Positions 11,423 to 24,722 of a DNA stretch of 56,857 nucleotides are shown in pieces (the first letter of the stretch is position 1; each line of letters begins with the position of its first letter). Made by a program: the position numbers and the translations under genes. The notes under the pieces are model-generated. The model was not told the origin of the DNA and searched no databases. It saw nothing but the letters and a program-made list of their open reading frames with translations. The DNA is from Candidatus Wolfebacteria bacterium RIFOXYD12_FULL_48_21 (GTDB lineage Bacteria; Patescibacteriota; Minisyncoccia; UBA6257; UBA9933). The stretch spans positions 1 to 56,857 of the forward strand of contig MGIW01000003.1 of NCBI GenBank assembly GCA_001793945.1. The letters are read 5' to 3'.

Positions 11423-12541
11423 ATGCAAAATTCTACACTCCCTGTTCTGCCCCAAGCCGTCATGCCTACTATTAAGGTCGTGTCGAGCACATGCAATCTT
11501 CGCTGCCACTATTGCTATTACAATGCATTAGACCAATCCCGCCCGAATCCAATGAGCACTAAGACTGTCACGAATTTGATCAAAAAAACGATTGAGTTTG
11601 TGCAAGACGACTATGTTCACTTCACATGGCACGGCGGAGAGCCTCTCTTGGCCGGAATGAATTTTTATGAACATATCCTCCGTATCCAAGAGCTGTACGG
11701 CAAGAAGAAAACAATCATCAACGGCATCCAAACCAATGCGACTCTTGTCAGTGACCGGTGGGCGAGCTTCTTCAAGAAACACGATTTCCGTGTTGGGGTA
11801 AGTATTGACGGCCCACCTATGATCCAAAATGCGCATCGAGTACTACCGTCACAAGGAGGAAGTTCTCGATTAGTACAACAAGGATTGCGTGCGCTCCAGC
11901 GCCATGACATCTACCCGCCAGCGATAGCGGTCGTTACCCGAGAATCCCTCGGCAATGCTCGGAAGATCTTCCAGTATTTCCTAAGGAACCATGTCCGTAG
12001 CATACACATCAAAGAATGCTACGAGATAGATCCTTCAACAGGGAGGCCCACTGCGCTTTCTGTTATGCCGGATGAATTCACTGCTTTCCTGATCGAAATA
12101 TTTGACATGTGGTTCGATCTGGATGACCCAAGTATTTCCATCAGAAATCTCGAGCAATTAGTTCGTGGCCTCGTCGGCGGTGAGCCATCCCTCTGCGAAG
12201 CCACGGGTAAATGCTGGCTCTTCCCCGTTGTTGAAGCAGATGGAACAGTTGGCGCATGCGATAGCTTCCCTATCCGTGACTATCACTTCGGCAACATAAA
12301 TGAAATGAGTTGGGGCGATCTCTTTGCAAGTGCCGGCAATATTCGATTCTCTGAGAATATCCGGCAAAATGAAGATAGGTGTCGCTCGTGCGAATGGTTT
12401 TCCATATGCCACGGGTGCTGCTTGCGTCATGCGCATTCCCCCGTTACTCACGAGTGGCACCATAATCTTTTCTGTACATCAAAAAAGCGCCTATTCGGCC
12501 ACATCAAGGCACGCATAGACGCAATTCATGCAGGGGGCTAG
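11423..12541 (+). CDS. radical SAM/SPASM maturase, anSME-like (A)
   Basis: CNLRCHYC (CX3CX2C), FTWHGGEPLL, GIQTNATLV, VGVSIDGP. C-terminal SPASM cysteines: CEATGKC...GACDSF...CRSCEWFSICHGCC. Confidence 0.8.
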   Translation: MQNSTLPVLPQAVMPTIKVVSSTCNLRCHYCYYNALDQSRPNPMSTKTVTNLIKKTIEFVQDDYVHFTWHGGEPLLAGMNFYEHILRIQELYGKKKTIINGIQTNATLVSDRWASFFKKHDFRVGVSIDGPPMIQNAHRVLPSQGGSSRLVQQGLRALQRHDIYPPAIAVVTRESLGNARKIFQYFLRNHVRSIHIKECYEIDPSTGRPTALSVMPDEFTAFLIEIFDMWFDLDDPSISIRNLEQLVRGLVGGEPSLCEATGKCWLFPVVEADGTVGACDSFPIRDYHFGNINEMSWGDLFASAGNIRFSENIRQNEDRCRSCEWFSICHGCCLRHAHSPVTHEWHHNLFCTSKKRLFGHIKARIDAIHAGG

Positions 12542-13563
12542 TAAGCCCCCTTTTTTATTACACTGATAACTCGTGTCATCTCGTCAATAAATTTCTTGTC
12601 GATTGCACGCTTCTTTTCAAAATAATATTGTGATAATGGATACATTTGCCATATCACATAATAGTACAGCCCATCATAAGAGATGATTTTCTTTTCTTTT
12701 ATCGCTTCCATATCATACAACAGCACATCGATCCACCCTAAATTTCTCAATAGCGGCGAGAAATGCTTTGCATGCGCTTGGTAGATGTACCCACTCGGAG
12801 CAATCCCCCCTACGACAATCTCGGTAAGAATATTTTTCTTGGACATTTTTGGCTGAACCAGATCTAATAAATCCATGCCGTCCCGTGATGCTGCCGCGCC
12901 AATGATCTTACTCAATTTTCTGTTGTTATCGAGAAGCACATGCACCATCTCATGCGCCATAACACCCAATGCGGTTTCCATATATTCATCAGAGTTATCT
13001 TCTATCGCTGCTTCCAATGTAATATGACCGCATCCCAAATTCGCACCGCCAGAGGCGCTTTTGTTGTTTATCGGACTCGGTATGATGTGCACGACAAAAT
13101 CCTCCAGCTTTTTATCGGGCTTGATCGCTCGCTCCATCGCCGCCATAAGCTTTATTCCATTTTCCGACTCCGCAATTTTCTTCAACGATCGACCCCATGC
13201 CTTGATCCCCTTCTCATCCCATATTTTTTTAAATCGTGGCTCGAACATGCGAAACACGCTCCGAATCTTTTTATACTCACCTTCCATTACATTTTTTTCT
13301 ACCTCCTCCCATGCTTCTTTCTCGGAGTTAAGAAAAAAATATTGTCCAAGATACACGAGTTTGTTCTTTTTATATTCAAACCCATATTTCCGCATAACAT
13401 CCCCAAAAACATTGATTGCTTCGCTTTCCTTTTCCGTCAGTACCCCCGTTTGCTTTATCCATTCTTTGTTATATTCAGTTCTGCATGAAAAATGCCACTC
13501 GGCAAGGTTCGAGATAAAGAAAAATAAATTTGAAATCCTTGAATGGACTATTTTATACTTCAT
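12538..13563 (-). CDS. HExxH putative zinc metallopeptidase (paralog of 22529-23383)
   Basis: Start at MKYKIVHSR. The longer ORF would overlap the precursor gene. Motif VMAHEMVHVLL. Shares SRxSNxxFF and ExxVxGxxPxGY blocks with the other HExxH protein. Stop overlaps the rSAM stop by 4 nt (convergent). Confidence 0.5.
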   Translation of the reverse strand: MKYKIVHSRISNLFFFISNLAEWHFSCRTEYNKEWIKQTGVLTEKESEAINVFGDVMRKYGFEYKKNKLVYLGQYFFLNSEKEAWEEVEKNVMEGEYKKIRSVFRMFEPRFKKIWDEKGIKAWGRSLKKIAESENGIKLMAAMERAIKPDKKLEDFVVHIIPSPINNKSASGGANLGCGHITLEAAIEDNSDEYMETALGVMAHEMVHVLLDNNRKLSKIIGAAASRDGMDLLDLVQPKMSKKNILTEIVVGGIAPSGYIYQAHAKHFSPLLRNLGWIDVLLYDMEAIKEKKIISYDGLYYYVIWQMYPLSQYYFEKKRAIDKKFIDEMTRVISVIKKGAY

Positions 13564-13600
13564 GATATTCAGTATACCAAAATGATTCGCACTATAAAAT

Positions 13601-13624
13601 AAAGGCTCACATCCGTGAGCCTTT
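13601..13624 (-). terminator. hairpin after the precursor-like sORF (partial terminator)
   Basis: AAAGGCTCAC-GGAT-GTGAGCCTTT then ATTTTAT on the minus strand. Lies between the 62-aa ORF and the HExxH gene. Confidence 0.5.
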
Positions 13625-13654
13625 ATACTATTCTCGACAACAGAACACCTTCCC

Positions 13655-13843
13655 TTAGCCAACAGACTTACTGTGGCCATTGCTGCTGTGGTTGTTGTAG
13701 CTCGGCCCATCATGATGGCAATACAGCCACTGATCACGCGCAACCCTCTCGATTGCACCGAGTACTAAGGCGCCTCGAGGCACCTGCGCACACCCATGAT
13801 TTCCACTTCCCAAACTCTTTTTGGGTACTACCGTTGTCTGCAT
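13655..13843 (-). CDS. 62-aa candidate RiPP precursor (A)
   Basis: AGGAGG then 7 nt then ATG. Product: MQTTVVPKKSLGSGNHGCAQVPRGALVLGAIERVARDQWLYCHHDGPSYNNHSSNGHSKSVG. Own promoter: TTGACA (13980-13985), 17 nt, CACAAT. Confidence 0.5.
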   Translation of the reverse strand: MQTTVVPKKSLGSGNHGCAQVPRGALVLGAIERVARDQWLYCHHDGPSYNNHSSNGHSKSVG

Positions 13844-13998
13844 AATACATCCTCCTTAGGCCAGTTGAATGAATCTTGCTTCTGTTGTTGATACTACTAC
13901 GCAATCAAATTCGATCAATGCGAATCGAATTGCATTTGATTAAATTACTAAATTAAATTGTGTGCTACTTCTACCGAATTGTCAAATGCCCACAAATA

Positions 13999-14117
13999 TC
14001 CTTCTCCCACCATTTGCCGTCTTTTTCGGAAAAGAACCGTATTATTTGCTCTGCGGAATAGTCTTTCATGGCTGGCATAGTGCCATTAGTATAGGGTATT
14101 TTTGGGGTTGGTGCAAA
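13999..14117 (-). repeat. R module copy 4 (most diverged)
   Basis: TTGCAC, 17 nt, ATACTA-type -10. The sORF at 13971-14078 encodes MPAMKDYSAEQIIRFFSEKDGKWWEKDICGHLTIR. The terminal AAGGAGG is mutated to AAGGAT. Confidence 0.8.
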
Positions 14118-14134
14118 AAAAAATAAAGGGATCC

Positions 14135-14623: not shown

Positions 14624-14701
14624 AAAAAAATATCTACACCCTGCGCTGTGTAGCTATTATAAACTCAGACATCATTACGCACAAGCAAGTTCCCCGTGTA
14701 T

Positions 14702-15451
14702 TTAATCTTTATACTTAATAAACTTAAGCGTTTTTTCAAAAAGCTCCTTTTGGGCTTTTTTGCCGGAAAATAAATGATTGGTCTTTTTTAGTACATAATA
14801 TTTTGACTTGGCCTTGTCTGGTGTTGCACGATAATATTTTTTTGCATCTGTGTCCGTACTTCCTTCCGCAGTAACAATACATGCGTTTTTATGCAAGGAA
14901 TGGAATATGCCCACGGAATCGACGCTGCCAAGTTCTTTATAAAATTTTCCATTGATAGCTATTTTATTACCCTGATTTTTTAATGTTTTCTCCGAATCAA
15001 TAGCAAAGATCTTGTCCATTGCCTTTTTAGACCAGGGCAAGCGACTCTGATCCCATAAAACAAGCTTGGTATTTTTTAAATATTTTTTATTATTAAATAA
15101 AAATAATATTGACATAATTGCGCCAAAACTATGACCGACAAAAATAAACTCGAGATACTTTTTTGGCAATTTTTCTATAACATTTTTTAACTCACTGCTA
15201 TAAAAAGATAGATCGAGATCTTTTATATCAAGTGCATTTCTTTTTTGAATATCTTCATTGCAGAGATTTATACGAAGGGTATCAAAGCCGCTCTTACGAA
15301 AAATCTCCGTCGCATTAATAAAAAGCGGCAAGTCCCGTCCACCAGACAGTCCGCTTAAAAAAATAACGAGTCTTGAGTTGCTCTTTTTCGCAAAAAGTTT
15401 CCCATAAAGGAACCTGCCGGGGATTTTTTTTGATTCAATTTTTATCTCCAT
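14702..15451 (-). CDS. alpha/beta hydrolase
   Basis: Start at MEIKIESKK. Nucleophile elbow FVGHSFGA (GxSxG). Typical length of ~250 aa. Confidence 0.65.
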   Translation of the reverse strand: MEIKIESKKIPGRFLYGKLFAKKSNSRLVIFLSGLSGGRDLPLFINATEIFRKSGFDTLRINLCNEDIQKRNALDIKDLDLSFYSSELKNVIEKLPKKYLEFIFVGHSFGAIMSILFLFNNKKYLKNTKLVLWDQSRLPWSKKAMDKIFAIDSEKTLKNQGNKIAINGKFYKELGSVDSVGIFHSLHKNACIVTAEGSTDTDAKKYYRATPDKAKSKYYVLKKTNHLFSGKKAQKELFEKTLKFIKYKD

Positions 15452-15467
15452 GCTTTTAATTAAAAGG

Positions 15468-15502
15468 CCCCACCACAAAATATATTATCGTATGTGGTGG
15501 GG
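15468..15502 (-). terminator. 10-bp perfect hairpin between the DUF397-like gene and the hydrolase gene
   Basis: CCCCACCACA with a 15-nt loop and TGTGGTGGGG. The minus-strand 3' side is only moderately T-rich, so this could be an attenuator or a processing site. Confidence 0.35.
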
Positions 15503-15529
15503 CATTACACTGGAGCCCATGCTCAGCTT

Positions 15530-15742: not shown

Positions 15743-15879
15743 AATCAGCATCTCCTTTTCAATTTTTACTAACTATCTTGCGTGCCGATCATTCTTTTTG
15801 AATGCTCAATTAAGCATTGTGCGCCGGCAAAATAACTATCTTGTTCTGAGCTGATTATATGATATATATATATTGTCAA
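15743..15879 (-). promoter_or_regulatory. L leader copy 3 with (TA)6-spacer promoter
   Basis: TTGACA (15874-15879), 14-nt spacer, TATAAT (15854-15859). Conserved leader core identical to the other copies. Confidence 0.55.
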
Positions 15880-15905
15880 GGGCTTGCAGACATCCACTTT
15901 TACCC

Positions 15906-16025
15906 CTCCTTCTCCCACCATTTGCCGTCTTTTTCGGAAAAGAACCGTATTATTTGTTCTGCGGAATATTCTTTCATGGCTGGCATATTGCCCTTAGTAT
16001 AGGGGATTTTTGCGTTTGGTGCAAA
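15906..16025 (-). repeat. R module copy 5
   Basis: The sORF at 15900-15986 gives the same 28-aa product as copy 1. The flank through the L promoter is also shared with copy 1. Confidence 0.85.
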
Positions 16026-16041
16026 AATACGGGCAATTCGC

Positions 16042-16713
16042 TTATCGCCTCCAAAGCTGCCATTTTGGCCTTTTCTTTTCCTTCTTTTCTTTGCGCTTTT
16101 TTTCTCTCATTTTTAGCGCATTTTCTCTCATTCTCTGCGCATCTTCCCTTATTTTCCTTCTTAGATCGTCTGTATAATATTTATCACTCAAATTATGCGT
16201 CTCCACTTGAAATCCTTTATTTTCGAGCATAATTTTTACCCGCTCGAGATGGTTCACGCCCACAATAAATGCAACATTCCGCACATCACTTTTCTTCCTT
16301 AAATACTCCTCCAGCCCCCGTACGAACGCCTTTTCCCTTTTCTCGGTCGACGGTTTTATCCGTATAGTTAGGAATCTTTGCATTTTTGCATCGACAAAAA
16401 TATGCTTATCGCCATATTTTTCTTCAAGTATTGTTTTCCCGGAATATATATTCTTTTTCCACCGATCGGCTGGGGTTTTATCGTATGCCCCACCCTCCTC
16501 TACCACAAGGTCGGGATTTTCTTCTTCGCATAATTGCAACAATTCATTACGCAACGCTTTCAAAGTTATATCTAATACGCCCAGTAGGTCTTCGGAAAAT
16601 CCCTTGGCGCGCAACTTTTGAATATGCCACTTGATATGCCCGTTTGCTTGCACATAATGAACCAACCCGATCAATCTAATGTGTATTTTTTTGTATTCTA
16701 TTTCCTTTGTCAT
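16042..16713 (-). CDS. Tiki/TraB/GumN-like protein with K/R/E-rich tail (copy 2)
   Basis: 223 aa. IRLIGLVH, PDLVVEEGG and FIVGVNHLERVKIMLENKGFQVE. Paralog of 7644-8285. Confidence 0.45.
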   Translation of the reverse strand: MTKEIEYKKIHIRLIGLVHYVQANGHIKWHIQKLRAKGFSEDLLGVLDITLKALRNELLQLCEEENPDLVVEEGGAYDKTPADRWKKNIYSGKTILEEKYGDKHIFVDAKMQRFLTIRIKPSTEKREKAFVRGLEEYLRKKSDVRNVAFIVGVNHLERVKIMLENKGFQVETHNLSDKYYTDDLRRKIREDAQRMRENALKMREKKRKEKKEKKRPKWQLWRR

Positions 16714-16735
16714 ATTATTTATTCAGTATAAGAAT

Positions 16736-16759: not shown

Positions 16760-16777
16760 TTGGAATCAATGCGGCGA

Positions 16778-16930: not shown

Positions 16931-17065
16931 AGTAGCACCTCTTTTGTGTTAAGCATCTTACGGGCCGATCATTCTTTTTGAATGCTCAATTAAGCATTGT
17001 GCGCCGGCAAAATAACTATCTTGTTCTGAGCTGATTATATGATATATATATATAGCTCTTGTCAA
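16931..17065 (-). promoter_or_regulatory. L leader copy 4 with 20-nt TA-rich spacer promoter
   Basis: TTGACA (17060-17065), 20-nt spacer, TATAAT (17034-17039). The 5' part matches L3 and the 3' part matches L1. Confidence 0.55.
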
Positions 17066-17090
17066 TACCCTTACCAGCGCGCTTTTACCC

Positions 17091-17210
17091 CTCCTTCTCC
17101 CACCATTTGCCGTCTTTTTCGGAAAAGAACCGTATTATTTGTTCTGCGGAATATTCTTTCATGGCTGGCATAGTGCCCTTAGTATAGGGGATTTTTGCGT
17201 TTGGTGCAAA
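17091..17210 (-). repeat. R module copy 6
   Basis: The sORF at 17085-17171 gives the 28-aa product. Directly preceded by a terminator, as in copy 1. Confidence 0.85.
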
Positions 17211-17212
17211 AA

Positions 17213-17230
17213 AGAGGCGCTTGCGCCTCT
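17213..17230 (-). terminator. terminator (copy of 20414-20433)
   Basis: AGAGGCG-CAAG-CGCCTCT followed by TTTTTT on the minus strand. Follows the truncated response regulator. Confidence 0.6.
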
Positions 17231-17237
17231 TTTGTTT

Positions 17238-17489
17238 TTACCCTTTCATTAACGCTTGCCGGATCTTTTTTACCACTTCTTCGAGGTCGGTGCCTTTTTC
17301 CATAAAATCTACTGCGCCGAGCTCTTTTGCGAGTGCGTCCCTGTCTTTGAACACGGGCCATGGATTGCTCATGCTCGTGAAAAATATTACCTTTACATTT
17401 TTCATCTCCGGTATATCGCGTAACTCGATAAGATACTCCGTGCCATTCATGCCGGGCATGTTTATGTCGAGCAAAAGCAGGTACGCCAT
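17238..17489 (-). pseudogene. 5'-truncated duplicate of response regulator 20441-20833
   Basis: 17205-17482 is essentially identical to 20406-20685. It encodes only from LLLLDINMPG onward and lacks the N-terminal acidic pocket. A new ATG lies at the junction. Confidence 0.7.
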
Positions 17490-17747: not shown

Positions 17748-18665
17748 ATGAAGCGGTACCTCCAACAAATCGAAACACTGAAGAACATATTTACTCCCCT
17801 TCAAGGAGAGCATTTCGAGCCGGCAACGGATGGCACCCATTATAAGGTTTTTCTTTCGCATAACTATGTCATCCGGTTCAGAGACGACAACCCAGACCTT
17901 TTGCTACGAGAGGTCGACTTATTAAAACACCTCGAACATCCTTTGATACCAAATGTGCTTTGGGTTGGCAATGTCAATGAATCAATCACTATGGTTGAAA
18001 ATCGCCTCCTTGGGCAAACCGTAAACAAGGTTTGGAAAACTCTTCCGGAAATAAGCAAGGCGACGATCATCGAGGATGTTGTCGGGTTTTTACATTATCT
18101 CAGGACACAACCAGAGCACTCCTACTACTCGATCAATACCGGTAAAACATACACCTCTTATTTGGATTATCTCACTGCCGATGTCGAACAGAAGGTTGCA
18201 ACGATACAAAAATTCGAGCAAGCTAAAGGCCTGTTGCAGGATCTATTGTCGATTATCAAAGAGCCAAAAAACAGTAATTTATTTTCTAACGGAAAGACCG
18301 CACTCATTCACGGAGATCTTATTATTCATAATCTCCTCACTGACGGTGATAAACTAACTGGAGTCCTCGACTGGGAACTGGCGTTGTTCGGCGATCCAGA
18401 TCATGACCTCTTCCGCCTTTTTTATTATCTGGAATGCGCAAAGGCCTACCAAGAGCAAGACACTGACGAATCATTTGAGGCCGATTATATGGACGCATTG
18501 ATCGCGGCAATCAAACGATCTGACATTATAGAAAATGAGCCACTTTTTCAGAAGAAATATAAATTCGTGCGGGCCATCTTTTACCTCAACGCGCTCAACT
18601 GGGCGTCAAATTCAAATAATCCGGAAAAAAATATTGCCGAACTTGTAAATCAGTGGGGTAAATGA
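17748..18665 (+). CDS. APH/choline-kinase-family phosphotransferase (second copy of the family)
   Basis: 305 aa. LIHGDLIIHNLLTDGDKLTGVLDWELALFGDPDHD catalytic region. Confidence 0.75.
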   Translation: MKRYLQQIETLKNIFTPLQGEHFEPATDGTHYKVFLSHNYVIRFRDDNPDLLLREVDLLKHLEHPLIPNVLWVGNVNESITMVENRLLGQTVNKVWKTLPEISKATIIEDVVGFLHYLRTQPEHSYYSINTGKTYTSYLDYLTADVEQKVATIQKFEQAKGLLQDLLSIIKEPKNSNLFSNGKTALIHGDLIIHNLLTDGDKLTGVLDWELALFGDPDHDLFRLFYYLECAKAYQEQDTDESFEADYMDALIAAIKRSDIIENEPLFQKKYKFVRAIFYLNALNWASNSNNPEKNIAELVNQWGK

Positions 18666-18750: not shown

Positions 18751-18763
18751 AACCGGGCTGCTG

Positions 18764-18859
18764 TCATTTGCAGCCCGTTCTCTTGCCGCCAGACAGATTT
18801 CCCGAAGCCATCGGGGAAACCTCGGTAATTTCAATCTTTTTGATCTCGATCTTTTTCAT
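18764..18859 (-). CDS. 31-aa candidate RiPP precursor (B), not in the ORF track
   Basis: AGGAGGTG followed by three ATGs. The third has ~8-nt spacing. Product: MKKIEIKKIEITEVSPMASGNLSGGKRTGCK. Lies 38 nt after the rSAM stop, with a terminator directly after. Confidence 0.55.
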   Translation of the reverse strand: MKKIEIKKIEITEVSPMASGNLSGGKRTGCK

Positions 18860-18897
18860 CATCATCACCTCCTTCATAGTATGTGATCGATTGTTAC

Positions 18898-20310
18898 CTA
18901 CCTTCCGCTTGAATGGATGTACTCAACAGCAAGCGCTTCCGTAACCGCGCGATAAAAATCGCATAGGTCAGCGAAGAGTCTTTGCCGCCTTTCTCCATCC
19001 GAACGCGCAACGATCTCCCTTGTCACATGACATTGGCCTCCACATGACCCTTCTATTGCGCATCCGGAACAGTAATCGTCAGTCCCAGGAAAGCGACTCT
19101 TGACCAACCCAAGCAGACCGCCTACTACCTCGAATGTTCGTTCAAAGGTATCAATGTGTCCGATCTGTGTAGTCGTATGACCACAGACTTTAATACTGCC
19201 GTCGACATTGAACTCAAGAGTCTTCCCTTCGACGGCAGCACAGAATGCGTGGTTTTCCGTCAACAGACTCCTACTGGTCAAGTTGCGAAAGGCGCTATCC
19301 CATGTACCAAAAAAATCGATGCCTTTATTATTGGCATATTTTTTCAGATGCATAAGCTTCGCTACCCTCTTGGTTACGGGAATATCAACCAAGCCTACAA
19401 GGTCGTAGTCAAACGCTATGGATGTCATACCTCGCTGAGCTGCCAGATCAATCACATCGGTATCGATGAGCTCGAAATTGCCGCCTGTTACCGTGATACT
19501 GAATCCGTCCAGCGGATACCCGATATCAGCCAAGAGATCAAATTTTTCCACGATCCTATTGAATGTACCCGCACCCCCTTTGGAAATACGGATTGCGTCA
19601 TTGGCCTGCGCAGTTCCATCAAGCGAGGTTGCTATGCGCACATGGTACTTCTTAAGCACCTCCGCAATCTCCCTCGTCATAAGCGTAAGATTGGTATTGA
19701 TGGCAAACTCAAAGGTCAAATCGCTCATGCCCTCGCAATACCGAAGGACCTTTTCGATTACCGGCCAGTTAATCAGCGGTTCGGCGTTGCCGAAATGCAT
19801 CTTACCGTGCCTGTTCCCGTATTTTTTCATCAGGCCTGCATACTGGTCGATACACTTCTTGGCCGTCTCCCAGCTCATATTGAGCTGCTTTCGATCCGGA
19901 AGTATACCGACATTACTATCAATAGACGACTGAAAGTGGATACAGTGCGTGCACGCAAAGTTACATGAATCGCTGATCGCAAGCCCCATACGATCAACAG
20001 TCCGCCCACTACTCACTTCCACCAAATGGCTTGCCATCTGGTGGCGCAAAAATTCTTTCTCGTCGAACCCGGGTTCGACGAGAAAGAAGACTTCTGCGAA
20101 CGCGCGAATTGTTTCTCTTGGATCTCCATCGCAAATTTGAGCGATTTCTTCTTTAGAGATAGGCCGCCTAAAGAGATTCAGAAATCGCAAACCCTCATCG
20201 TTAATAATGCGGGGGTTGCCATATAAGGCATGATATGCCATTGCAGACCCCGGCTCCGATCCCGTTACGATGCGGATATTCGGTGACAATTGATATTGTC
20301 GCTTTTCCAT
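18898..20310 (-). CDS. radical SAM/SPASM peptide maturase with N-terminal PqqD/RRE-like domain (B)
   Basis: Start at MEKRQYQ (GAGGAGAGG RBS). The N-terminal ~100 aa look RRE-like (EGLRFLNLFRRPISKEEIAQI). CNFACTHC (CX3CX2C). SPASM cysteines: CAAVEG...VCGH...CSGCAIEGSCGGQC. Confidence 0.75.
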   Translation of the reverse strand: MEKRQYQLSPNIRIVTGSEPGSAMAYHALYGNPRIINDEGLRFLNLFRRPISKEEIAQICDGDPRETIRAFAEVFFLVEPGFDEKEFLRHQMASHLVEVSSGRTVDRMGLAISDSCNFACTHCIHFQSSIDSNVGILPDRKQLNMSWETAKKCIDQYAGLMKKYGNRHGKMHFGNAEPLINWPVIEKVLRYCEGMSDLTFEFAINTNLTLMTREIAEVLKKYHVRIATSLDGTAQANDAIRISKGGAGTFNRIVEKFDLLADIGYPLDGFSITVTGGNFELIDTDVIDLAAQRGMTSIAFDYDLVGLVDIPVTKRVAKLMHLKKYANNKGIDFFGTWDSAFRNLTSRSLLTENHAFCAAVEGKTLEFNVDGSIKVCGHTTTQIGHIDTFERTFEVVGGLLGLVKSRFPGTDDYCSGCAIEGSCGGQCHVTREIVARSDGERRQRLFADLCDFYRAVTEALAVEYIHSSGR

Positions 20311-20359
20311 TGCAACCTCTCCTCTTATTCGGTTAGTAAAGGGCTTCAAAACTGCCAAT

Positions 20360-20388
20360 AGAATACCACTGGTGCATATATGTGTCAA
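20360..20388 (-). promoter_or_regulatory. sigma70-type promoter for rSAM B
   Basis: TTGACA (20383-20388), 17 nt, TATTCT (20360-20365) on the minus strand. Confidence 0.5.
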
Positions 20389-20413
20389 ATTGGTATTAAT
20401 CTTATTGCAAAAA

Positions 20414-20433
20414 AGAGGCGCCTGCGCGCCTCT
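20414..20433 (-). terminator. rho-independent terminator after the response regulators
   Basis: AGAGGCGC-GCAG-GCGCCTCT then TTTTTTGC on the minus strand. Confidence 0.7.
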
Positions 20434-20440
20434 TTTGTTT

Positions 20441-20833
20441 TTACCCTTTCATTAACGCTTGCCGGATCTTTTTTACCACTTCTTCGAGGTCGGTGCCTTT
20501 TTCCATAAAATCTACTGCGCCGAGCTCTTTTGCGAGTGCGTCCCTGTCTTTGAACACGGGCCATGGATTGCTCATGCTCGTGAAAAATATTACCTTTACA
20601 TTTTTCATCTCCGGTATATCGCGTAACTCGATAAGATACTCCGTGCCATTCATGCCGGGCATGTTTATGTCGAGCAAAAGCAGGTCCGGTTTATATGTTT
20701 TTACCGTCTCCAATGCAACCTCCGGGTCGTTGACGGTTTTAATGTCAAAGCCCTCGGCTTGCAATTTCATCGATATGATCGACGATAGATCGAGGTCGTC
20801 GTCTACCATCATGATCCTCGGGGTGGTACTCAT
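20441..20833 (-). CDS. single-domain response regulator (CheY-like receiver)
   Basis: 130 aa. IMMVDDD, LLLLDINMPGMNG (phospho-acceptor Asp), conserved T/K region. No output domain. Confidence 0.85.
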   Translation of the reverse strand: MSTTPRIMMVDDDLDLSSIISMKLQAEGFDIKTVNDPEVALETVKTYKPDLLLLDINMPGMNGTEYLIELRDIPEMKNVKVIFFTSMSNPWPVFKDRDALAKELGAVDFMEKGTDLEEVVKKIRQALMKG

Positions 20834-20845
20834 ATAATGATTATA

Positions 20846-21247
20846 TCACATTCCTGCTTCGGGAGCCGCAATAAGCTCCCTCACCTGTTTTATTAGCTGG
20901 TCAAGATCGACCGCCTTATCGATAAATGCTACTGCTCCCAACTCACTTGCAACACTCTGAAGGTCGCCGCCGCCTTTCCATGGATTGATCATCGACGAGA
21001 AAAATGCGACCTTGATCGCCTTTGCATCGGGATTTTCTTTCAGCTCATTGATGAATTCTATTCCGCTCATGCCCGGCATGTTGATATCGAGCAATACCAG
21101 ATCCGGGTGGATCTCTTCGATCATCCGCAGGCCCATCTGCGGCATATCCGCCACATGCACCGCGAACCCTTCGCTTTCCAGTTTTGTCTTGATGATCGAA
21201 TCGAATTCCCGATCTTCATCCACCAATACCACTAAGTTATGTTCCAT
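20846..21247 (-). CDS. single-domain response regulator (CheY-like receiver)
   Basis: 133 aa. VVLVDED, LVLLDINMPGMSG. No output domain. Confidence 0.85.
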   Translation of the reverse strand: MEHNLVVLVDEDREFDSIIKTKLESEGFAVHVADMPQMGLRMIEEIHPDLVLLDINMPGMSGIEFINELKENPDAKAIKVAFFSSMINPWKGGGDLQSVASELGAVAFIDKAVDLDQLIKQVRELIAAPEAGM

Positions 21248-21253
21248 TGTTTA

Positions 21254-22120: not shown

Positions 22121-22152
22121 TTGCTATAGTATAGCAAAAAAATCGGCATCCG

Positions 22153-22478
22153 TGGAATGGCATGCGGGGGGGTGCGAGATTGGAGGTAAGAGATGAGAGG
22201 TAAGGAAAAAGAGGGGGTGCTGGATTCCCGTTTTCACGGGAATAACAAAGAGAGAGGCTGGTATGACAATGCGTAAATGCTGGATTCCTCCGCCAGTGGG
22301 CGGACGGGAATGACAAAGAGGGAGTATAGTATGACCCCGTAGAGAAAGTTGCTACTTTCCACGGGGCATGCAATGCGGGGGAAGGAGTGGAGGCGAGAGA
22401 TGCGAGATGAGAAAAAGAGAGCGGGCGGGGCTGGGATACTGCAACACCCCTTGGCGTATCCGGAATCCCGCGTTTTTT
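22153..22478. repeat. mosaic of GGAATGACA-type palindromic units and purine-rich words
   Basis: Units include CTGGATTCCCG-TTTTCAC-GGGAATAACA and CTGGATTCCTCCGCC-AGTG-GGCGGACGGGAATGACA, plus GAGGTAAGAGATGAGAGG words. Confidence 0.7.
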
Positions 22479-22528
22479 GCAAATAAACAAAATTTACAGT
22501 TTTCCTACAATATGCCATTATAATTTAT

Positions 22529-23383
22529 ATGAACCTATCAATCATCATTTCCCGTTTTTCTAATTTCTTATTTTTCGTTCAAAAAAATGGGAATTTTTTG
22601 GCAGCCTATCCTTCTAATAATCCTCTTGATTTATCTTTTTACGAGAAAAATGAACGCGCAATATGGAGACAAATAGAACTATCCACCGACAAGCATACTG
22701 CAAAAAAAATTAAAGAAGCTATTACCCCATTAAAGGGTGAGTTTTTTTCTCACTGGAATGCAATATCCGGGCATCTACTTCTCTGGAAACGCTACTTTCA
22801 AAATAACCGGCACTTGCTTCAGCAAGCACTATCCGAAACAAGCGCGTTATGCGGAGTAAAACATTTCGCAATTTCCAACATTCCTATTTATCTCATTTCT
22901 GACCCAGCGAGCGATGACAACGAGATCAATGCGTGGTTTTCGTGGACCCCAAAACAGTCCTTTCTTGTCGTTGAAATTCCGCACAATCTCACCCCTCCTA
23001 ATCATTTATTCCCTGTAAGCGTATTAATTCATGAATTTTTCCATTTATTAATTCGAAGAAATAAAATTCTATTCTCGACAATCGCTACGCTTGCGCAAAA
23101 AGACAGCTCGCTTATTACAAAAATAGCAGGCGGTATACCAAATAGAATATTTTTAGAAGAATTATTAGTTAGCTCATTTATTCCCGAGGGCTATTTGAGT
23201 AAACAATATTTTGACACGAAAATCCCATCTATCAAGCCAAGACCAAAGACGTTATTACAGTGGAGAAAATTCATAGCGTCAAACATGTATCAAATGGCAC
23301 GAACATATATCAACAGCCACCTCGCCATCGATAAACGATATCTTAATACTATAATAAAAATTATTAAGCAAAGTGCAGTATAA
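22529..23383 (+). CDS. HExxH putative zinc metallopeptidase (paralog of 12538-13563)
   Basis: 284 aa. VLIHEFFHLLI. Shares blocks (SRFSNFLFF, EELLVSSFIPEGYL) with the other HExxH protein. Convergent with rSAM C. Confidence 0.5.
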   Translation: MNLSIIISRFSNFLFFVQKNGNFLAAYPSNNPLDLSFYEKNERAIWRQIELSTDKHTAKKIKEAITPLKGEFFSHWNAISGHLLLWKRYFQNNRHLLQQALSETSALCGVKHFAISNIPIYLISDPASDDNEINAWFSWTPKQSFLVVEIPHNLTPPNHLFPVSVLIHEFFHLLIRRNKILFSTIATLAQKDSSLITKIAGGIPNRIFLEELLVSSFIPEGYLSKQYFDTKIPSIKPRPKTLLQWRKFIASNMYQMARTYINSHLAIDKRYLNTIIKIIKQSAV

Positions 23384-23387
23384 AAAA

Positions 23388-23415
23388 CCCTTATCGACTC
23401 ACGAGCCGATAAGGG
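23388..23415. terminator. bidirectional terminator
   Basis: CCCTTATCG with a 10-nt loop and CGATAAGGG. T-runs on both strands. Serves the HExxH gene (+) and precursor C (-). Confidence 0.75.
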
Positions 23416-23441
23416 TTTTTGATTTTATTCGCAAAGATCCA

Positions 23442-23579
23442 TTATTTCCTATTTGCCCAGTGGCCCCTGTCCCATGGACTCCCCTTCCCCGACGCTCTTA
23501 TTACAGCTTTTTCCTTTGCCTGCAACAAAACCTTCGGGATAAGCCGCGGGTGCGCCTTCGTAGTAACAACTTGCTTCAT
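23442..23579 (-). CDS. 45-aa candidate RiPP precursor (C), not in the ORF track
   Basis: AAGGAGGTG then 6 nt then ATG. Product: MKQVVTTKAHPRLIPKVLLQAKEKAVIRASGKGSPWDRGHWANRK. Lies 39 nt after the rSAM C stop. Terminator follows. Confidence 0.6.
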   Translation of the reverse strand: MKQVVTTKAHPRLIPKVLLQAKEKAVIRASGKGSPWDRGHWANRK

Positions 23580-23618
23580 AGCCTTCACCTCCTTTTTTGC
23601 AAATATGCCTTGCTCGGA

Positions 23619-24722
23619 TTACATAAGACCGTACGATCTTATTTTTGTTGAAATATGTTCAAAATATCTTTTTCTATTTTTACAAGCGTCATCCAATGGC
23701 TCGATAGAATCAAGCCGCTCATACCCATCACTTGCGCATCCTCCTTTGCATATAAAATGCCAATTACAATTATGGCAATAGCTCCTCCTTTTCCTTATCG
23801 TTTCCTGAAATATCCGCAAATTCGAATTTGATCTAACGATAGCCGGTTCGTCCAGTATACTGCCAAAATATACCGCGTCTGTTTTGGAAAAAGAATCACA
23901 TCCATAAATCGATCCGTCTGAATAGATAGTGGCAAATCGACCACATTGCCCCGTGTAAATACATTCGCGTTTATTCCCACCAAGCATCAGATCAACAACG
24001 CTTTGAATATCGCGAATCTCGACTTCCTGATCATCCGCCTCCAGCCAAAGATCAAATATGGCAATCATAAAATCCGTGTATTGCGTAGGCGAAATTGCCA
24101 GCGACGACACATCCCCACAATCACCAGTATCTTTCACTCTGGCAAATTTCAACTTCTTCATGCCTTTCTCAAGAAAAAAGTTAAAAATTTCTCTTGGGAA
24201 TTCATGGTTTATAGCGCTGATGCCACAAATAACCCCATTGAATATCCCTTCGTTACGCAACAAATTGATTCCCTCCATAACATCATCGTATGATCCTTTT
24301 TTATCGGAATATCGCCGAACTTGATCATGAAATTCCTTTGGCCCGTCAAGACTCACTCCGACAAGAAAGTTATTTCCCGCGAATAATCTGATCCATTCCG
24401 TAGTAAGTAGTGTGGCATTGGTCTGGATAAAATTCTCTATTCTTTTCCCTTTCTGCCTCCATACATACTGCAATTCTACCGCTTTTTGATAAAAGCATAA
24501 TCCTGCAAGCAACGGCTCTCCTCCATGCCAAATAAATTCAACATCATCTTGATCGTGGCAGAAAAAATCTATTACAGCTTTTAATATCTCGGGCTGCATA
24601 CGATTTTTTACATTACAATCCCTCAGTCCAGAAACATAGCAGTATGAACAGGACAAATTACATAATGCATCAACCGGCTTTATAATCGGTACTGAAATCA
24701 ACTGATGGGACATGTTAACCAC
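23619..24722 (-). CDS. radical SAM/SPASM maturase, anSME-like (C)
   Basis: CNLSCSYC (CX3CX2C), FIWHGGEPLLAG, FIQTNATLL, VGVSLDGP. SPASM cysteines: CIYTGQC...GCDSF...CHNCNWHFICKGGC. Confidence 0.8.
   Translation of the reverse strand: MVNMSHQLISVPIIKPVDALCNLSCSYCYVSGLRDCNVKNRMQPEILKAVIDFFCHDQDDVEFIWHGGEPLLAGLCFYQKAVELQYVWRQKGKRIENFIQTNATLLTTEWIRLFAGNNFLVGVSLDGPKEFHDQVRRYSDKKGSYDDVMEGINLLRNEGIFNGVICGISAINHEFPREIFNFFLEKGMKKLKFARVKDTGDCGDVSSLAISPTQYTDFMIAIFDLWLEADDQEVEIRDIQSVVDLMLGGNKRECIYTGQCGRFATIYSDGSIYGCDSFSKTDAVYFGSILDEPAIVRSNSNLRIFQETIRKRRSYCHNCNWHFICKGGCASDGYERLDSIEPLDDACKNRKRYFEHISTKIRSYGLM

What the first reader, a model, noticed from the sequence alone, without database searches (positions are those of the whole stretch)
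11423..24722. Recurring convergent pair: anSME-like radical SAM/SPASM enzyme with a paralogous HExxH protein and a short peptide gene (two loci)
Locus A:
- rSAM at 11423-12541 (+)
- HExxH protein at 12538-13563 (-)
- 62-aa ORF at 13655-13843 (-)

Locus C:
- HExxH protein at 22529-23383 (+)
- 45-aa ORF at 23442-23579 (-)
- rSAM at 23619-24722 (-)

The two rSAMs are clear paralogs, sharing xxWHGGEPLL, IQTNATL, VGVSxDGP and SPASM cysteines. The two HExxH proteins share several blocks. In both loci the rSAM and the HExxH gene face each other.

No sulfatase gene is nearby that would explain an anSME-type enzyme. A maturase, a putative leader peptidase and a small peptide together form the classic RiPP architecture. 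I do not recognise this particular enzyme pairing, or these peptides, as a described RiPP class.
Basis: partly seen in the sequence, partly recalled or inferred. Interest (0 to 1): 0.8.

Follow-up and report, generated by a model that had tools for sequence, protein, structure and literature searches.

The report
Radical-SAM peptide gene trios in Patescibacteria
The window carries two copies of a three-gene unit (a short precursor peptide, a radical-SAM enzyme related to sulfatase and cyclophane maturases, and an unclassified HExxH metalloprotein) that recurs in about 75 loci of ultrasmall Patescibacteria and most likely makes cross-linked ribosomal peptides that nobody has characterised.

Summary
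All six ORFs exist at the stated coordinates. Both short ORFs have strong Shine-Dalgarno sites and hairpin terminators.

The rSAM, HExxH and peptide linkage is conserved well beyond chance.
- All 5 close relatives of rSAM-A have a convergent HExxH partner.
- 36 of 56 informative loci of the HExxH-C subfamily have a convergent rSAM-C orthologue.
- The 230-290 nt gap in those loci holds a conserved peptide, with leader PKVLLQAKKEA and core (PWDKA)n...GPWDKGHWANRK.

The predicted cores are built from aromatic-x-(D/N/K) triplets. This is the substrate grammar of three-residue cyclophane ("triceptide") rSAM maturases.

The rSAMs are full-length anSME-like SPASM enzymes. They fall below every curated family cut-off. 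No sulfatase is present, and the locus-C peptide core has no Cys or Ser.

The HExxH proteins form a family seen here only in Patescibacteria (about 690 clusters at 50% identity). HExxH plus a Glu about 40 residues downstream are invariant, which is gluzincin-like. The family has no Pfam or NCBIfam model and no structural neighbour. It is not detectably related to the known rSAM-associated aKG-HExxH hydroxylases.

Best reading: new triceptide-like RiPP families with a new dedicated zincin, probably a peptidase. The chemistry is inferred, not shown.

The parts
11423..12541 (+). rSAM-A: radical SAM/SPASM enzyme, anSME-like, no N-terminal RRE extension
   Evidence: Pfam Radical_SAM, Fer4_12 and SPASM. 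TIGR03942 297.6 bits against a cut-off of 349; DynA 236 against 450. anSMEcpe 4k37 E 7e-55, full length. All 5 close relatives (46-51% identity) have the same convergent HExxH partner.
12532..12551 (.). Hairpin at the convergent junction of rSAM-A and HExxH-A. The two stop codons overlap by 4 nt. Terminator-like.
12538..13563 (-). HExxH-A: 341-aa member of an unclassified zincin-like family found only in Patescibacteria. HEMVH at residues 204-208, invariant Glu248.
   Evidence: AF2 pLDDT 88.6. No Pfam, NCBIfam or PDB neighbour.
13599..13626 (-). 12-bp hairpin plus T-run between pepA and HExxH-A. Possible attenuator that sets the precursor-to-enzyme ratio.
   Evidence: The attenuator function is inferred.
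13655..13843 (-). pepA: 62-aa class-I precursor. Core is ...CHHDGPSYNNHSSNGHSKSVG, with triplets H-H-D, Y-N-N and H-S-K.
   Evidence: SD AAGGAGG. Homologues are found in L005, L008, L012, L130-L132 and L134, with consensus C-H-x-D-G-P-S-Y-N-D...D-H-x-K.
13954..14119 (-). Copy of the 166-nt D1 repeat (promoter-like TTTGCA-18-TATACT plus leader) just upstream of pepA. Probable promoter of the pepA/HExxH-A unit.
   Evidence: Promoter function is inferred.
22529..23383 (+). HExxH-C: 284-aa member of a well conserved subfamily (HEFFH at residues 168-172; invariant E210 and E211).
   Evidence: (129 homologues, all named 'hypothetical'). AF2 pLDDT 90.7. No PDB neighbour.
23385..23418 (-). Hairpin plus T-run after pepC, abutting the stop of HExxH-C. 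Terminator-like at the convergent junction.
   Evidence: Read directly from the sequence. The scan tool did not list it.
23442..23579 (-). pepC: 45-aa precursor. Leader is ..IPKVLLQAKEKA.. and core is GSPWDRGHWANRK, with triplets W-D-R and W-A-N.
   Evidence: SD AAGGAGGTG. 38 distinct homologues occupy the same gap between the rSAM and HExxH genes. The leader and the C-terminal GPWDKGHWANRK are invariant, and the number of W-x-K units ranges from none to five.
23619..24722 (-). rSAM-C: radical SAM/SPASM enzyme, paralogue of rSAM-A
   Evidence: anSMEcpe E 2e-49, with all eight auxiliary-cluster Cys and the Cys-Asp pair aligned. Orthologues (46-92% identity) are convergent to HExxH-C in 36 of 56 informative loci.
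18764..20388 (-). Neighbouring but separate third pair. rSAM/SPASM of 496 aa (18898-20388; PapB/RumMC/CcpM-like, with an N-terminal extension), followed by a 35-37-aa ORF (18764-18877; ...SGGKRTGCK) with an SD and a terminator.
   Evidence: Not part of the HExxH trios in this window. A homologue sits beside a HExxH-family gene in L040.

Best explanation
Loci A and C are two diverged copies of a three-gene RiPP unit found here only in Patescibacteria (CPR).

1. **Precursor.** A short precursor is made with an amphipathic leader (..I/V-L/I-x-A-x-x-K/R..) and a C-terminal core built from aromatic-x-(D/N/K/R) triplets.
2. **rSAM step (inferred).** The anSME-like radical SAM/SPASM enzyme binds the leader directly, since it has no RRE domain. 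It abstracts a hydrogen from the side-chain carbon of the third residue of each triplet. It then closes a carbon-carbon (cyclophane-type) bond to the aromatic ring two residues upstream, costing 2 Da per triplet. Triceptide and daropeptide maturases work this way.
3. **HExxH step (inferred, weaker).** The HExxH...E protein is a zinc-dependent peptidase that removes the leader and/or trims the cross-linked core.

**What is shown:**
- the genes are real;
- the linkage is conserved;
- the peptides and their triplet grammar are conserved;
- the rSAM has all cluster ligands;
- the HExxH+E residues are invariant.

**What is inferred:** the type of cross-link, the peptidase activity, and the biological role of the product.
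For: **Linkage, HExxH-anchored searches**
- Genome scan: 20 of 36 Patescibacteria loci have a full-length anSME-like rSAM next to the HExxH gene, mostly convergent. Three more have rSAM fragments.
- Metagenome scan of the HExxH-C subfamily: 36 of 56 loci with at least 1.3 kb downstream have a convergent rSAM-C orthologue at a fixed gap of 230-290 nt.

**Linkage, rSAM-anchored searches**
- 5 of 5 close relatives of rSAM-A have the convergent HExxH partner.
- The flanking genes differ between loci, so the trio moves as a unit.
- In L008 and L012 the order is pep-HExxH-rSAM on one strand.

**Peptides**
- 38 distinct pepC homologues keep the frame, the leader and the C-terminus, with none to five W-x-K units.
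- 12 class-I peptides share C-H-x-D-G-P-S-Y-N-D...D-H-x-K.
- In 26 cores, aromatic-x-[D/N] occurs 72 times against 27.8 expected. D/N makes up 57% of residues at +2 from an aromatic residue, against a 22% background.
- HExxH subfamily, rSAM subfamily and peptide class co-vary.

**rSAM enzymes**
- CX3CX2C motif plus all eight SPASM Cys, aligned to anSMEcpe.
- The best curated models are anSME, DynA, DarW/DarE, AmcB, YhhB, GrrM/OscB, FxsB and XyeB. Apart from anSME, these are the cyclophane-forming clade.
- The pepC core has no Cys or Ser, so anSME-type chemistry is excluded there.

**HExxH proteins**
- H, E, H and a Glu about 40 residues downstream are the only invariant columns in 64 diverse members. 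The same pattern holds in subfamily C.
- The AF2 models place a three-stranded sheet before the HExxH helix.
- All sub-threshold hits are zincin peptidases: M91, SprT-like, M12, DUF5700, BSP, Wss1, and M61/M1.
Against: - There is no experimental or expression evidence.
- The rSAMs score best against the anSME model and fall below every curated cut-off, so the chemistry cannot be read from family membership.
- The HExxH family has no significant sequence or fold neighbour (Foldseek best E 0.16-0.19), so 'peptidase' rests on a motif.
- The geometry of the fourth invariant residue could not be measured.
- The HExxH gene is usually on the opposite strand from the rSAM.
- 20 of 56 HExxH-C loci lack the rSAM, so the protein can persist alone.
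- The window has no exporter. ABC exporters and M16 peptidases are only occasional neighbours.
- The class-II peptides used for the triplet statistics were picked by eye from SD-positive ORFs in the gaps.
Confidence: 0.55

Rival explanations
1. The HExxH protein is not a peptidase. It is an oxidative tailoring enzyme, working like the aKG/Fe(II)-dependent HExxH beta-hydroxylases (ChlH, BpmH, PflC). Those enzymes act on Asp, His, Asn or Gln of peptides that already carry a cyclophane.
For: - Known precedent for pairing a cyclophane rSAM with a HExxH domain, where the fold 'resembles zincins' but the chemistry is hydroxylation (PMC12636437, read).
- The cores here are rich in Asp, Asn and His at the triplet positions.
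- The HExxH subfamily co-varies with the peptide class.
Against: - None of 64 family members hits TIGR04267 (aKG-HExxH) at E up to 0.1. The positive control PflC scores 98.5 bits.
- hhalign of the family profile against PflC gives 1% probability, with only the 15 columns around HExxH aligned.
- The fourth invariant residue here is a Glu on a later helix, as in gluzincins.
- From my own knowledge: most Patescibacteria are anaerobic fermenters without a TCA cycle, a poor setting for O2- and aKG-dependent chemistry.
Confidence: 0.2
2. The rSAMs install a different cross-link or modification from the triceptide C-C bond. Candidates are a Cys-to-Asp thioether (ranthipeptide-like) in class-I peptides, or ether or C-N links as in daropeptides.
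For: - Class-I cores have a conserved Cys three residues before the conserved Asp (C-H-x-D).
- PapB-type models hit at 113-149 bits, and DynA is the second-best model.
- The enzymes sit closer to anSME than to characterised triceptide synthases: anSMEcpe E 1e-49 to 1e-55, against ChlB E 1e-20 to 1e-27.
Against: - The Cys is replaced by Tyr in the L001, L007 and L013 branch, and by Ser in L035.
- pepC-type and class-II cores have no Cys in the repeated units.
- The one feature shared by all classes is the aromatic-x-X triplet.
Confidence: 0.2
3. The rSAMs are ordinary anaerobic sulfatase-maturating enzymes, and the short ORFs and HExxH genes are unrelated neighbours.
For: - The best NCBIfam model is TIGR03942.
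- The alignment to anSMEcpe is full length and includes the Cys-Asp pair.
- More distant homologues (31-34% identity) are annotated as anSME in Paenibacillus, Prevotella and Bacteroidales.
Against: - Scores of 298 and 275 bits are below the curated cut-off of 349.
- The window has no sulfatase signature and no [CS]xPxR motif in any ORF of 150 aa or more.
- Adjacency to conserved peptide and HExxH genes holds across about 75 loci.
- The pepC core lacks Cys and Ser.
Confidence: 0.04
4. The HExxH protein has its own function, such as immunity against the peptide or a general Patescibacteria protease. It is linked to the rSAM and peptide genes only loosely.
For: - It is on the opposite strand from the rSAM in most loci.
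- 20 of 56 HExxH-C loci lack the rSAM, some of them among housekeeping genes.
- The HExxH gene survives where the rSAM and peptide have decayed (L046, L064, L121).
Against: - 5 of 5 rSAM-anchored loci have it.
- The gap length is fixed and the flanks vary.
- Single-strand pep-HExxH-rSAM operons exist in L008 and L012.
- In locus A the peptide is co-oriented with the HExxH gene, not with the rSAM.
- The subfamily co-varies with the peptide class.
Confidence: 0.12

Closest known systems
Triceptides and their three-residue cyclophane-forming rSAM/SPASM enzymes (3-CyFEs: XyeB, GrrM/OscB, YhhB, HaaB, HtkB, MicB, ChlB)
   Same: - The rSAM/SPASM enzyme has no RRE domain.
- The precursor cores are built from repeated aromatic-x-X triplets. 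Compare HTK, YSK, HAS and FTK in known systems (PMC11499958, PMC12912966).
- The number of triplets per peptide varies.
- Curated 3-CyFE models are among the top hits.
   Different: - All curated 3-CyFE models score far below their cut-offs, for example GrrM/OscB 149-166 bits against 310.
- The enzymes are nearer to anSME.
- The hosts are Patescibacteria.
- The triplets are dominated by X3 = Asp/Asn (classes I and II) or Lys (pepC).
- A dedicated HExxH...E protein is part of the unit.
- The product chemistry is untested.
Anaerobic sulfatase-maturating enzyme (anSMEcpe, PDB 4K36-4K39; TIGR03942)
   Same: - Best-scoring family and best solved structure.
- Same length, with all three cluster-binding Cys sets and the Cys-Asp pair aligned.
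   Different: - Below the equivalog cut-off.
- No sulfatase in the window.
- Conserved partners are short peptides, and one class has no Cys or Ser.
Daropeptide maturases DynA and DarE (dynobactin, darobactin)
   Same: - DynA is the second-best model, at 236-260 bits.
- Trp-rich short cores with cross-links between an aromatic ring and a side-chain beta-carbon two residues away. That cross-link description is from my own knowledge. [quoted passage not shown]
   Different: - Below the cut-off of 450.
- Different precursors.
- No BamA-targeting context.
- The HExxH partner is absent from dar and dyn clusters.
ChlBH/FxsB-type fused rSAM and aKG-HExxH proteins; stand-alone aKG-HExxH enzymes BpmH, PflC and PosC (TIGR04267 / IPR026337)
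   Same: A cyclophane-type rSAM is associated with a HExxH-motif protein of zincin-like appearance in a RiPP cluster.
   Different: - There is no detectable sequence or profile similarity beyond the HExxH helix.
- The genes are separate and mostly convergent, not fused.
- The fourth invariant residue is Glu.
CPR graspetide 'branch 2' loci (Makarova et al. 2022, PMC8939145)
   Same: That paper notes CPR RiPP loci encoding a SPASM maturase, two zincin-superfamily peptidases, Tiki/TraB-like proteins and alpha/beta hydrolases. The window also has an alpha/beta hydrolase gene at 14702-15478.
   Different: - Those loci are defined by an ATP-grasp ligase. None is present in the trios here.
- The paper does not describe the rSAM, HExxH and peptide trio or these peptides.
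- I could not test whether its zincins are this family.
Gluzincin metallopeptidases used as RiPP leader peptidases (for example the M1-family lanthipeptide peptidase EryP, PDB 7V9O)
   Same: - HExxH plus a downstream Glu.
- A beta-sheet followed by an active-site helix.
- EryP and other M1/M61 enzymes are among the weak Foldseek hits.
   Different: - Foldseek E is above 0.1 and TM-scores are 0.2-0.3.
- The protein is much smaller.
- It belongs to no MEROPS or Pfam family.

Membership tests
anSME (TIGR03942 equivalog) | Score at or above the curated cut-off (349.45 bits) | tested here: not met
   297.6 bits (rSAM-A) and 275.3 bits (rSAM-C)
anSME (TIGR03942 equivalog) | CX3CX2C motif plus the eight Cys of two auxiliary 4Fe-4S clusters (SPASM) | tested here: met
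   Translations. Column-by-column alignment to 4k37.
anSME (TIGR03942 equivalog) | A sulfatase substrate with the C/S-x-P-x-R motif | tested here: not met
   No sulfatase signature or minimal motif in any ORF of 150 aa or more in the window. The conserved neighbour pepC has no Cys or Ser in its core. The rest of the genome was not available.
Triceptide synthases (3-CyFE) | rSAM/SPASM enzyme without an RRE domain, encoded next to a short precursor | tested here: met
   The rSAM core starts at about residue 20. Adjacent conserved peptides are shown.
Triceptide synthases (3-CyFE) | Precursor core made of aromatic(1)-X(2)-X(3) motifs | tested here: met
   72 observed against 27.8 expected aromatic-x-[D/N] triplets. 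W-x-K and W-A-N in 38 pepC homologues. H-x-D, Y-N-D and H-x-K in class I.
Triceptide synthases (3-CyFE) | Match to a curated 3-CyFE model above its cut-off (YhhB, GrrM/OscB, XyeB, FxsB, AmcB) | tested here: not met
   YhhB 152-156 bits against 445; GrrM/OscB 149-166 against 310; XyeB 82-87 against 450; FxsB 128-131 against 370; AmcB 131-154 against 425.
Triceptide synthases (3-CyFE) | Product with an aromatic-C to C-beta bond, costing 2 Da per motif | not testable with these tools
   Needs co-expression with MS/MS and NMR.
Daropeptide maturases (DynA, DarE) | Score at or above the cut-off (450 and 650 bits) | tested here: not met
   DynA 236 and 260 bits; DarE 156 and 141 bits.
aKG-HExxH peptide beta-hydroxylases (TIGR04267 / IPR026337) | Match to the family model (cut-off 40 bits) | tested here: not met
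   0 of 64 members match at E up to 0.1, and the two window proteins do not match at E up to 10. The positive control PflC scores 98.5 bits, E 4e-28.
aKG-HExxH peptide beta-hydroxylases (TIGR04267 / IPR026337) | Profile-level homology beyond the HExxH helix | tested here: not met
   hhalign of A2 against PflC: probability 1.1%, 15 aligned columns. The PflC sequence came from an OCR'd supplement.
aKG-HExxH peptide beta-hydroxylases (TIGR04267 / IPR026337) | Fe(II)- and aKG-dependent hydroxylation of the peptide | not testable with these tools
   A biochemical assay is needed.
Gluzincin zinc metallopeptidases | Invariant HExxH | tested here: met
   H204, E205 and H208 are invariant in 64 diverse members. 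H168, E169 and H172 are invariant in 42 members of subfamily C.
Gluzincin zinc metallopeptidases | Third ligand Glu on a helix downstream of HExxH | tested here: inconclusive
   E248 (E210/E211 in subfamily C) is the only other invariant residue, and it lies in a predicted helix.
Gluzincin zinc metallopeptidases | Zincin fold detectable by structure comparison | tested here: inconclusive
   Foldseek best E is 0.16-0.19 against the PDB and 0.022 against BFVD (an M61 domain). Weak hits are enriched in M1, M61, leishmanolysin, serralysin and SprT.
Gluzincin zinc metallopeptidases | Membership of a named peptidase family (Pfam or NCBIfam) | tested here: not met
   Only sub-threshold hits: M91 at 18.6 bits against 25, and SprT-like in 3 of 64 members.
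Known anti-phage defence systems (PADLOC) and phage protein families (PHROGs) | Match of the HExxH or rSAM proteins to a defence or phage model | tested here: not met
   The HExxH proteins match nothing. The rSAMs show only generic radical-SAM-core similarity to pVip, at 45-49 bits.

The most novel reading that the evidence does not exclude
The trio could be a RiPP class of its own, restricted to Patescibacteria, in two respects.

- The anSME-like enzymes would carry out chemistry not seen in triceptides. One example is attack on the beta-carbon of Asp, Asn or Lys in a D-x-P-x-Y context that mirrors the sulfatase C-x-P-x-R motif.
- The new HExxH...E family would be a novel kind of tailoring or processing enzyme, not a simple leader peptidase.

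The products would serve the episymbiotic lifestyle of these bacteria, for instance in host attachment, host killing or exclusion of competitors.
Probability: 0.2. Interest if true: 0.8.

Novelty: new variant of a known kind. Interest (0 to 1): 0.62.

Why it matters
**Genome economy.** Patescibacteria have genomes of about 1 Mb and very few biosynthetic pathways. Even so, this 57-kb window holds three rSAM-peptide pairs, and the HExxH partner family comprises about 690 clusters at 50% identity. This points to a widespread, conserved and uncharacterised peptide chemistry in a major uncultivated bacterial radiation.

**What the analysis provides.**
- Defined precursor families with clear motifs: C-H-x-D-G-P-S-Y-N-D...D-H-x-K; W-D-N-W-P-D...; (PWDKA)n-GPWDKGHWANRK.
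- Their cognate enzymes, ready for heterologous expression.
- A new HExxH family whose activity (peptidase or oxidase) can be tested directly against known substrates.

**Evolutionary context.** The rSAM enzymes lie between anSME and the cyclophane synthases. They may show how substrate and reaction specificity evolved in this clade.

Tried and rejected
1. **Structure search.** Foldseek of both AF2 models (pLDDT 88.6 and 90.7) against the PDB, and of model A against BFVD, gave nothing with E below 0.02. No fold assignment is possible beyond a weak enrichment in zincins.
2. **PDB sequence search** with the family profile found only Wss1p, at E 8e-4, over the sheet plus the HExxH helix.
3. **aKG-HExxH hypothesis.**
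   - The Nature Chemistry 2024 paper on ChlBH is not held.
   - I recovered PflC from an OCR'd supplement and used it as a positive control.
   - The family is not detectably related to it.
4. **Sulfatase explanation** rejected.
5. **Defence-system and phage-family explanations** rejected.
6. **Conserved accessory genes.** ABC exporter and M16 peptidase genes are only occasional neighbours and are absent from the window.
7. **Synteny of flanks.** Aldolase, response regulator and YchF are shared only with the closest relative, L044. The trio is therefore not simply embedded in a conserved chromosomal block.
8. **D1 repeat upstream of pepA as a structured RNA.** There is no Rfam hit and the fold z-score is -0.18. 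It looks like a shared promoter and leader.
9. **Literature.** Searches for a described Patescibacteria cyclophane or triceptide system found none in the held library.
10. **Thioether reading of class-I peptides.** I considered a Cys-Asp thioether and ranked it below the cyclophane reading. The Cys is not conserved across branches and is absent from the other classes.

Full report
**1.

The ORF list contains all six genes at the stated coordinates.
- The HExxH-A reading frame runs on mechanically to a GTG at 13758. The Met at 13563 is the real start, because the paralogue and all homologues begin there with M-K-F/Y-x-I/F...S-N-x-F-F-F.
- The rSAMs are 34% identical over 358 residues (E 6e-70).
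- The two HExxH proteins are only 21% identical over their C-terminal 143 residues (E 2e-8). They align in one family with the same invariant residues.
- Both short ORFs have strong ribosome-binding sites (AAGGAGG, AAGGAGGTG). Both are followed by hairpins with T-runs.
- The geometry differs between the loci. pepA precedes HExxH-A on the minus strand and converges on rSAM-A. pepC follows rSAM-C and converges on HExxH-C.
- No sulfatase signature exists in any ORF of 150 aa or more.

**2. What the enzymes are**

*The rSAM proteins*
- Both have Radical_SAM, and rSAM-A also matches the SPASM Pfam domain.
- Both align over their full length with anSMEcpe (PDB 4K36/4K37; E 7e-55 and 2e-49). The alignment includes the CX3CX2C motif, all eight auxiliary-cluster cysteines and the Cys-Asp pair.
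- In NCBIfam the top models are anSME (298 and 275 bits; cut-off 349), then DynA, DarW/DarE, AmcB, YhhB, GrrM/OscB, FxsB, PapB and XyeB. All are below their cut-offs. The enzymes therefore belong to the anSME/cyclophane-maturase clade but to no curated family.
- rSAM-A has about ten close relatives (46-51% identity). Identity then drops to about 33% against annotated anSMEs of Paenibacillus, Prevotella and Bacteroidales.

*The HExxH proteins*
- A word-indexed search found only 14 relatives of HExxH-A in 5.8 billion proteins. It found 129 relatives of HExxH-C, every one of them called 'hypothetical protein'.
- A full HMM scan of 1.84 billion representatives with the family profile found 690 proteins at E up to 1e-3, and 458 at E up to 1e-10.
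- A genome scan returned 36 loci. Every one that carries a taxon name is a Patescibacteria lineage: Paceibacterota, Wolfe-, Jorgensen-, Kerfeld-, Yanofsky-, Nomura-, Zambryski-, Azambacteria, WWE3 and 'Saccharibacteria' bins.
- No Pfam or NCBIfam model matches. Only sub-threshold zincin hits appear: M91, SprT-like, M12, DUF5700, BSP, FtsH, HtpX and Wss1.
- In an alignment of 64 diverse members the only invariant columns are H204, E205, H208 and E248. In 42 members of subfamily C the equivalents are H168, E169, H172 and E210/E211. HExxH with a Glu about 40 residues downstream on a later helix is the gluzincin signature.
- The AF2 models are confident (pLDDT 88.6 and 90.7). They show a three-stranded sheet immediately before the HExxH helix.
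- Foldseek finds no significant neighbour in the PDB or BFVD. The weak hits are enriched in M1 and M61 aminopeptidases, EryP, leishmanolysin, serralysin and SprT-like proteins.

**3. Is the linkage conserved?**

Yes, whichever gene anchors the search.

*Anchored on the HExxH gene*
- P0008 and P0006 contigs show HExxH(+) converging on an rSAM/SPASM(-) that is preceded by a 63-64-aa gene.
- In the genome scan, 20 of 36 loci have a full-length anSME-like rSAM within about 1.5 kb, mostly convergent. Three more have rSAM fragments. Several of the rest end too close to the HExxH gene to tell.
- In the metagenome scan of subfamily C, 36 of 56 loci with at least 1.3 kb downstream have a convergent rSAM-C orthologue at a nearly constant gap of 230-290 nt.

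*Anchored on the rSAM gene*
- All five close relatives of rSAM-A that I could look up have a convergent 324-338-aa protein with HE..H at residues 200-205. That protein matches HExxH-A at E 1e-45 to 2e-73. Four of the five have a class-I peptide upstream of it.

*Other points*
- The flanks differ from locus to locus, so the trio is the conserved unit.
- In L008 and L012 all three genes lie on one strand in the order pep-HExxH-rSAM.
- The linkage is not absolute. The closest relative of HExxH-A (L005, 69% identity) keeps pepA-HExxH but has another gene where the rSAM would be.
- 20 of 56 HExxH-C loci lack the rSAM. Some of these retain decayed 3' remnants of pepC. In L064 the remnant is fused to a stub of the rSAM.

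**4. The peptides are real and share one grammar**

*pepC family*
- There are 38 distinct sequences in the rSAM-HExxH gap.
- All have an SD site, the leader ..(I/V)PKVLLQAKKEA.., and the C-terminus GPWD(K)GHWANRK.
- Between leader and C-terminus there are none to five copies of a PWDKA or WEKG unit. The window's pepC is the minimal form (W-D-R, W-A-N).

*pepA family (class I)*
- These peptides align with a leader helix and a core C-H-x-D-G-P-(S/G)-(Y/H)-N-(D/N)-x-S-G-x-x-D-H-x-K.
- A sister branch has Y-Y-S-D-x-P-x-Y-D-H.

*Class II*
- More distant HExxH/rSAM pairs carry peptides such as ...GWDNWPDWDNGPDFPNWED....

*Shared pattern*
- Across 26 cores, aromatic-x-[D/N] occurs 72 times against 27.8 expected from shuffles.
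- D/N is 57% of residues at +2 from an aromatic residue. It is 29% at +1, 12% at +3, and 22% overall.
- With X3 = Lys in pepC, every class is built from aromatic(1)-X(2)-X(3) triplets. This is exactly the substrate rule described for triceptides, for example HTK, YSK, HAS and FTK (PMC11499958; PMC12912966).
- The class-II peptides were chosen by eye from SD-positive ORFs in the gaps, so the statistic carries some selection bias. The pepC and class-I sets were found by position and motif, and are unambiguous.

**5. Mechanism**

- *Shown:* gene reality, linkage, peptide conservation, intact cluster ligands, and the invariant HExxH+E.
- *Inferred, moderate confidence:* the rSAM recognises the amphipathic leader directly, since it has no RRE. 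It forms one aromatic-to-side-chain cross-link per triplet. The pepC core has no Cys or Ser, which excludes anSME chemistry there.
- *Inferred, weaker:* the HExxH...E protein is a zinc peptidase that removes the leader or trims the product.
- The hairpin between pepA and HExxH-A could act as an attenuator that gives excess precursor. This is also inference.
- The window encodes no exporter. ABC exporters occur next to only a minority of related loci.

**6. Rivals**

- The main rival for the HExxH protein is an oxidative role like that of the aKG-HExxH beta-hydroxylases. Those enzymes are fused or adjacent to cyclophane rSAMs (ChlBH, BpmH, PflC; PMC12636437).
- I tested this directly. PflC, recovered from the paper's supplement, scores 98.5 bits on TIGR04267. 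None of 64 members of the present family hits that model. hhalign aligns only the 15 columns around HExxH, at 1% probability.
- The family is therefore not a detectable member of that group. Convergent use of a HExxH site for oxidation cannot be excluded by sequence alone.
- Other rivals are given with their evidence in the rival list: a true anSME, other cross-link types such as a Cys-Asp thioether in class I, and a HExxH protein with an independent role.

**7. Comparison with what is known, and novelty**

- *Works like:* a triceptide or daropeptide pathway.
- *Membership:* the defining feature tested (curated model cut-offs) is not met for anSME, DynA/DarE or any 3-CyFE family. The triplet grammar and the RRE-less SPASM architecture are met. 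The product chemistry is untestable here.
- The HExxH family is unclassified.
- The only related published remark I found is that some CPR graspetide loci encode a SPASM enzyme and zincin peptidases (PMC8939145). No held paper links cyclophanes or triceptides to Patescibacteria.
- I therefore rate it a new variant of a known kind. It comprises new precursor families and a new rSAM subclade within the cyclophane-RiPP logic, plus a new, dedicated metalloprotein partner.

**8. Context in the window**

- The region from 4 to 24 kb is a repeat-rich island with paralogous modules.
- It holds a third rSAM/SPASM (496 aa, sactipeptide/ranthipeptide-like) followed by its own short Cys-containing ORF.
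- It also holds six copies of a 166-nt promoter-plus-leader repeat, one of them directly upstream of pepA.

Noticed in passing
window 18764-20388 (-), with 17748-18665 (+): A third rSAM/SPASM enzyme (496 aa; best models PapB, RumMC and CcpM; about 130-aa N-terminal extension). It is followed on the same strand by an SD (GAAGGAGGTG), a 35-37-aa ORF (MMMKKIEIKKIEITEVSPMASGNLSGGKRTGCK) and a hairpin/T-run terminator. It converges on an APH-type kinase gene. In L040 (Azambacteria) a 32%-identical homologue lies next to a HExxH-family gene and is followed by a 34-aa Cys-containing ORF.
   Followed up: partly
window 6777-6942, 7465-7630, 11160-11325, 13954-14119, 15862-16027, 17047-17212: Six copies of a 166-nt repeat whose central ~120 nt are almost invariant. 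It contains a promoter-like TTTGCA/TTGCAC-17/18-TATACT, plus a leader that includes the first 26 codons of the PaaK-like gene (MPAMKEYSAEQIIRFFSEKDGKWWEK) and ends in GGAGAAGGAGG. One copy is the true 5' end of the PaaK-like gene, and one sits just upstream of pepA. The others precede unrelated genes. It looks like a shared promoter and leader that couples several operons of the island. There is no Rfam hit and no significant fold (z = -0.18).
   Followed up: partly
window 8658-11284 (-) and 5404-6069: A ThiF/Rv1355c-like adenylyltransferase and a PaaK-like adenylate-forming enzyme form an operon that diverges from rSAM-A. A nitroreductase gene (5509-6069) carries a 116-nt, 90%-identical copy of the ThiF gene's 3' end (repeat D14). 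In Rv1355c-type proteins ThiF and nitroreductase are fused, so this may be a split or rearranged version. It is not conserved next to rSAM-A relatives (L130-L134).
   Followed up: partly
window 7644-8351 (-) and 16042-16713 (-); L005 3839-5202: Two paralogous ~225-aa proteins with no Pfam hit (motif ...IFVDAKMQRF...FIVGVNHLERV..., Lys-rich tail). Each sits inside a larger duplicated block (repeats D3, D4, D5, D17-D19). Homologues occur in tandem right after the HExxH-A orthologue in L005, where the rSAM would otherwise be.
   Followed up: no
window 17208-17485 vs 20411-20688: A 278-nt, 97%-identical duplicate of the 3' part of a response-regulator receiver gene (20441-20833). The copy at 17238-17489 is a truncated 83-aa ORF. 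Two full receiver-only regulators lie in tandem at 20441-21247.
   Followed up: no
window 22218-54157 (repeat families D2, D7, D8, D10-D13, D15, D16): Many short hairpin-type intergenic repeats (for example CTGGATTCCCGCCTTCGCGGGAATGACA and TGTCATCCCGAGTGCAATGCAGCGAAGCG...CGAGGGATCTG), plus arrays of a GGTATAG / GGTATGAGG heptamer at about 31.4, 38.1, 39.2 and 54.0 kb. These are REP- or MITE-like elements of unknown role.
   Followed up: no
window 36509-36850 (+): tmRNA gene (Rfam 114.7 bits; tag peptide ANKTAVPAFAFA).
   Followed up: yes
L046 ~4850-4950, L064 ~4350-4450, L121 ~640-730 (all minus strand): In HExxH-C loci that lack the rSAM, the 3' end of pepC (...GPWDxGHWANRK*) survives as a remnant immediately after the HExxH gene. 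In L064 it is fused in frame to a stub of the rSAM (..LAGLEFYRKAVEIQ..). This shows recent deletion of the rSAM and peptide with the HExxH gene retained.
   Followed up: partly
class-I peptides: window 13655-13843, L008, L012, L130-L134: The conserved core segment D-G-P-S-Y has the same spacing as the sulfatase motif C-T-P-S-R that anSME recognises, with Asp in place of Cys/Ser and Tyr/His in place of Arg. This may hint at how an anSME-like active site was re-targeted. It is a pure sequence observation.
   Followed up: no
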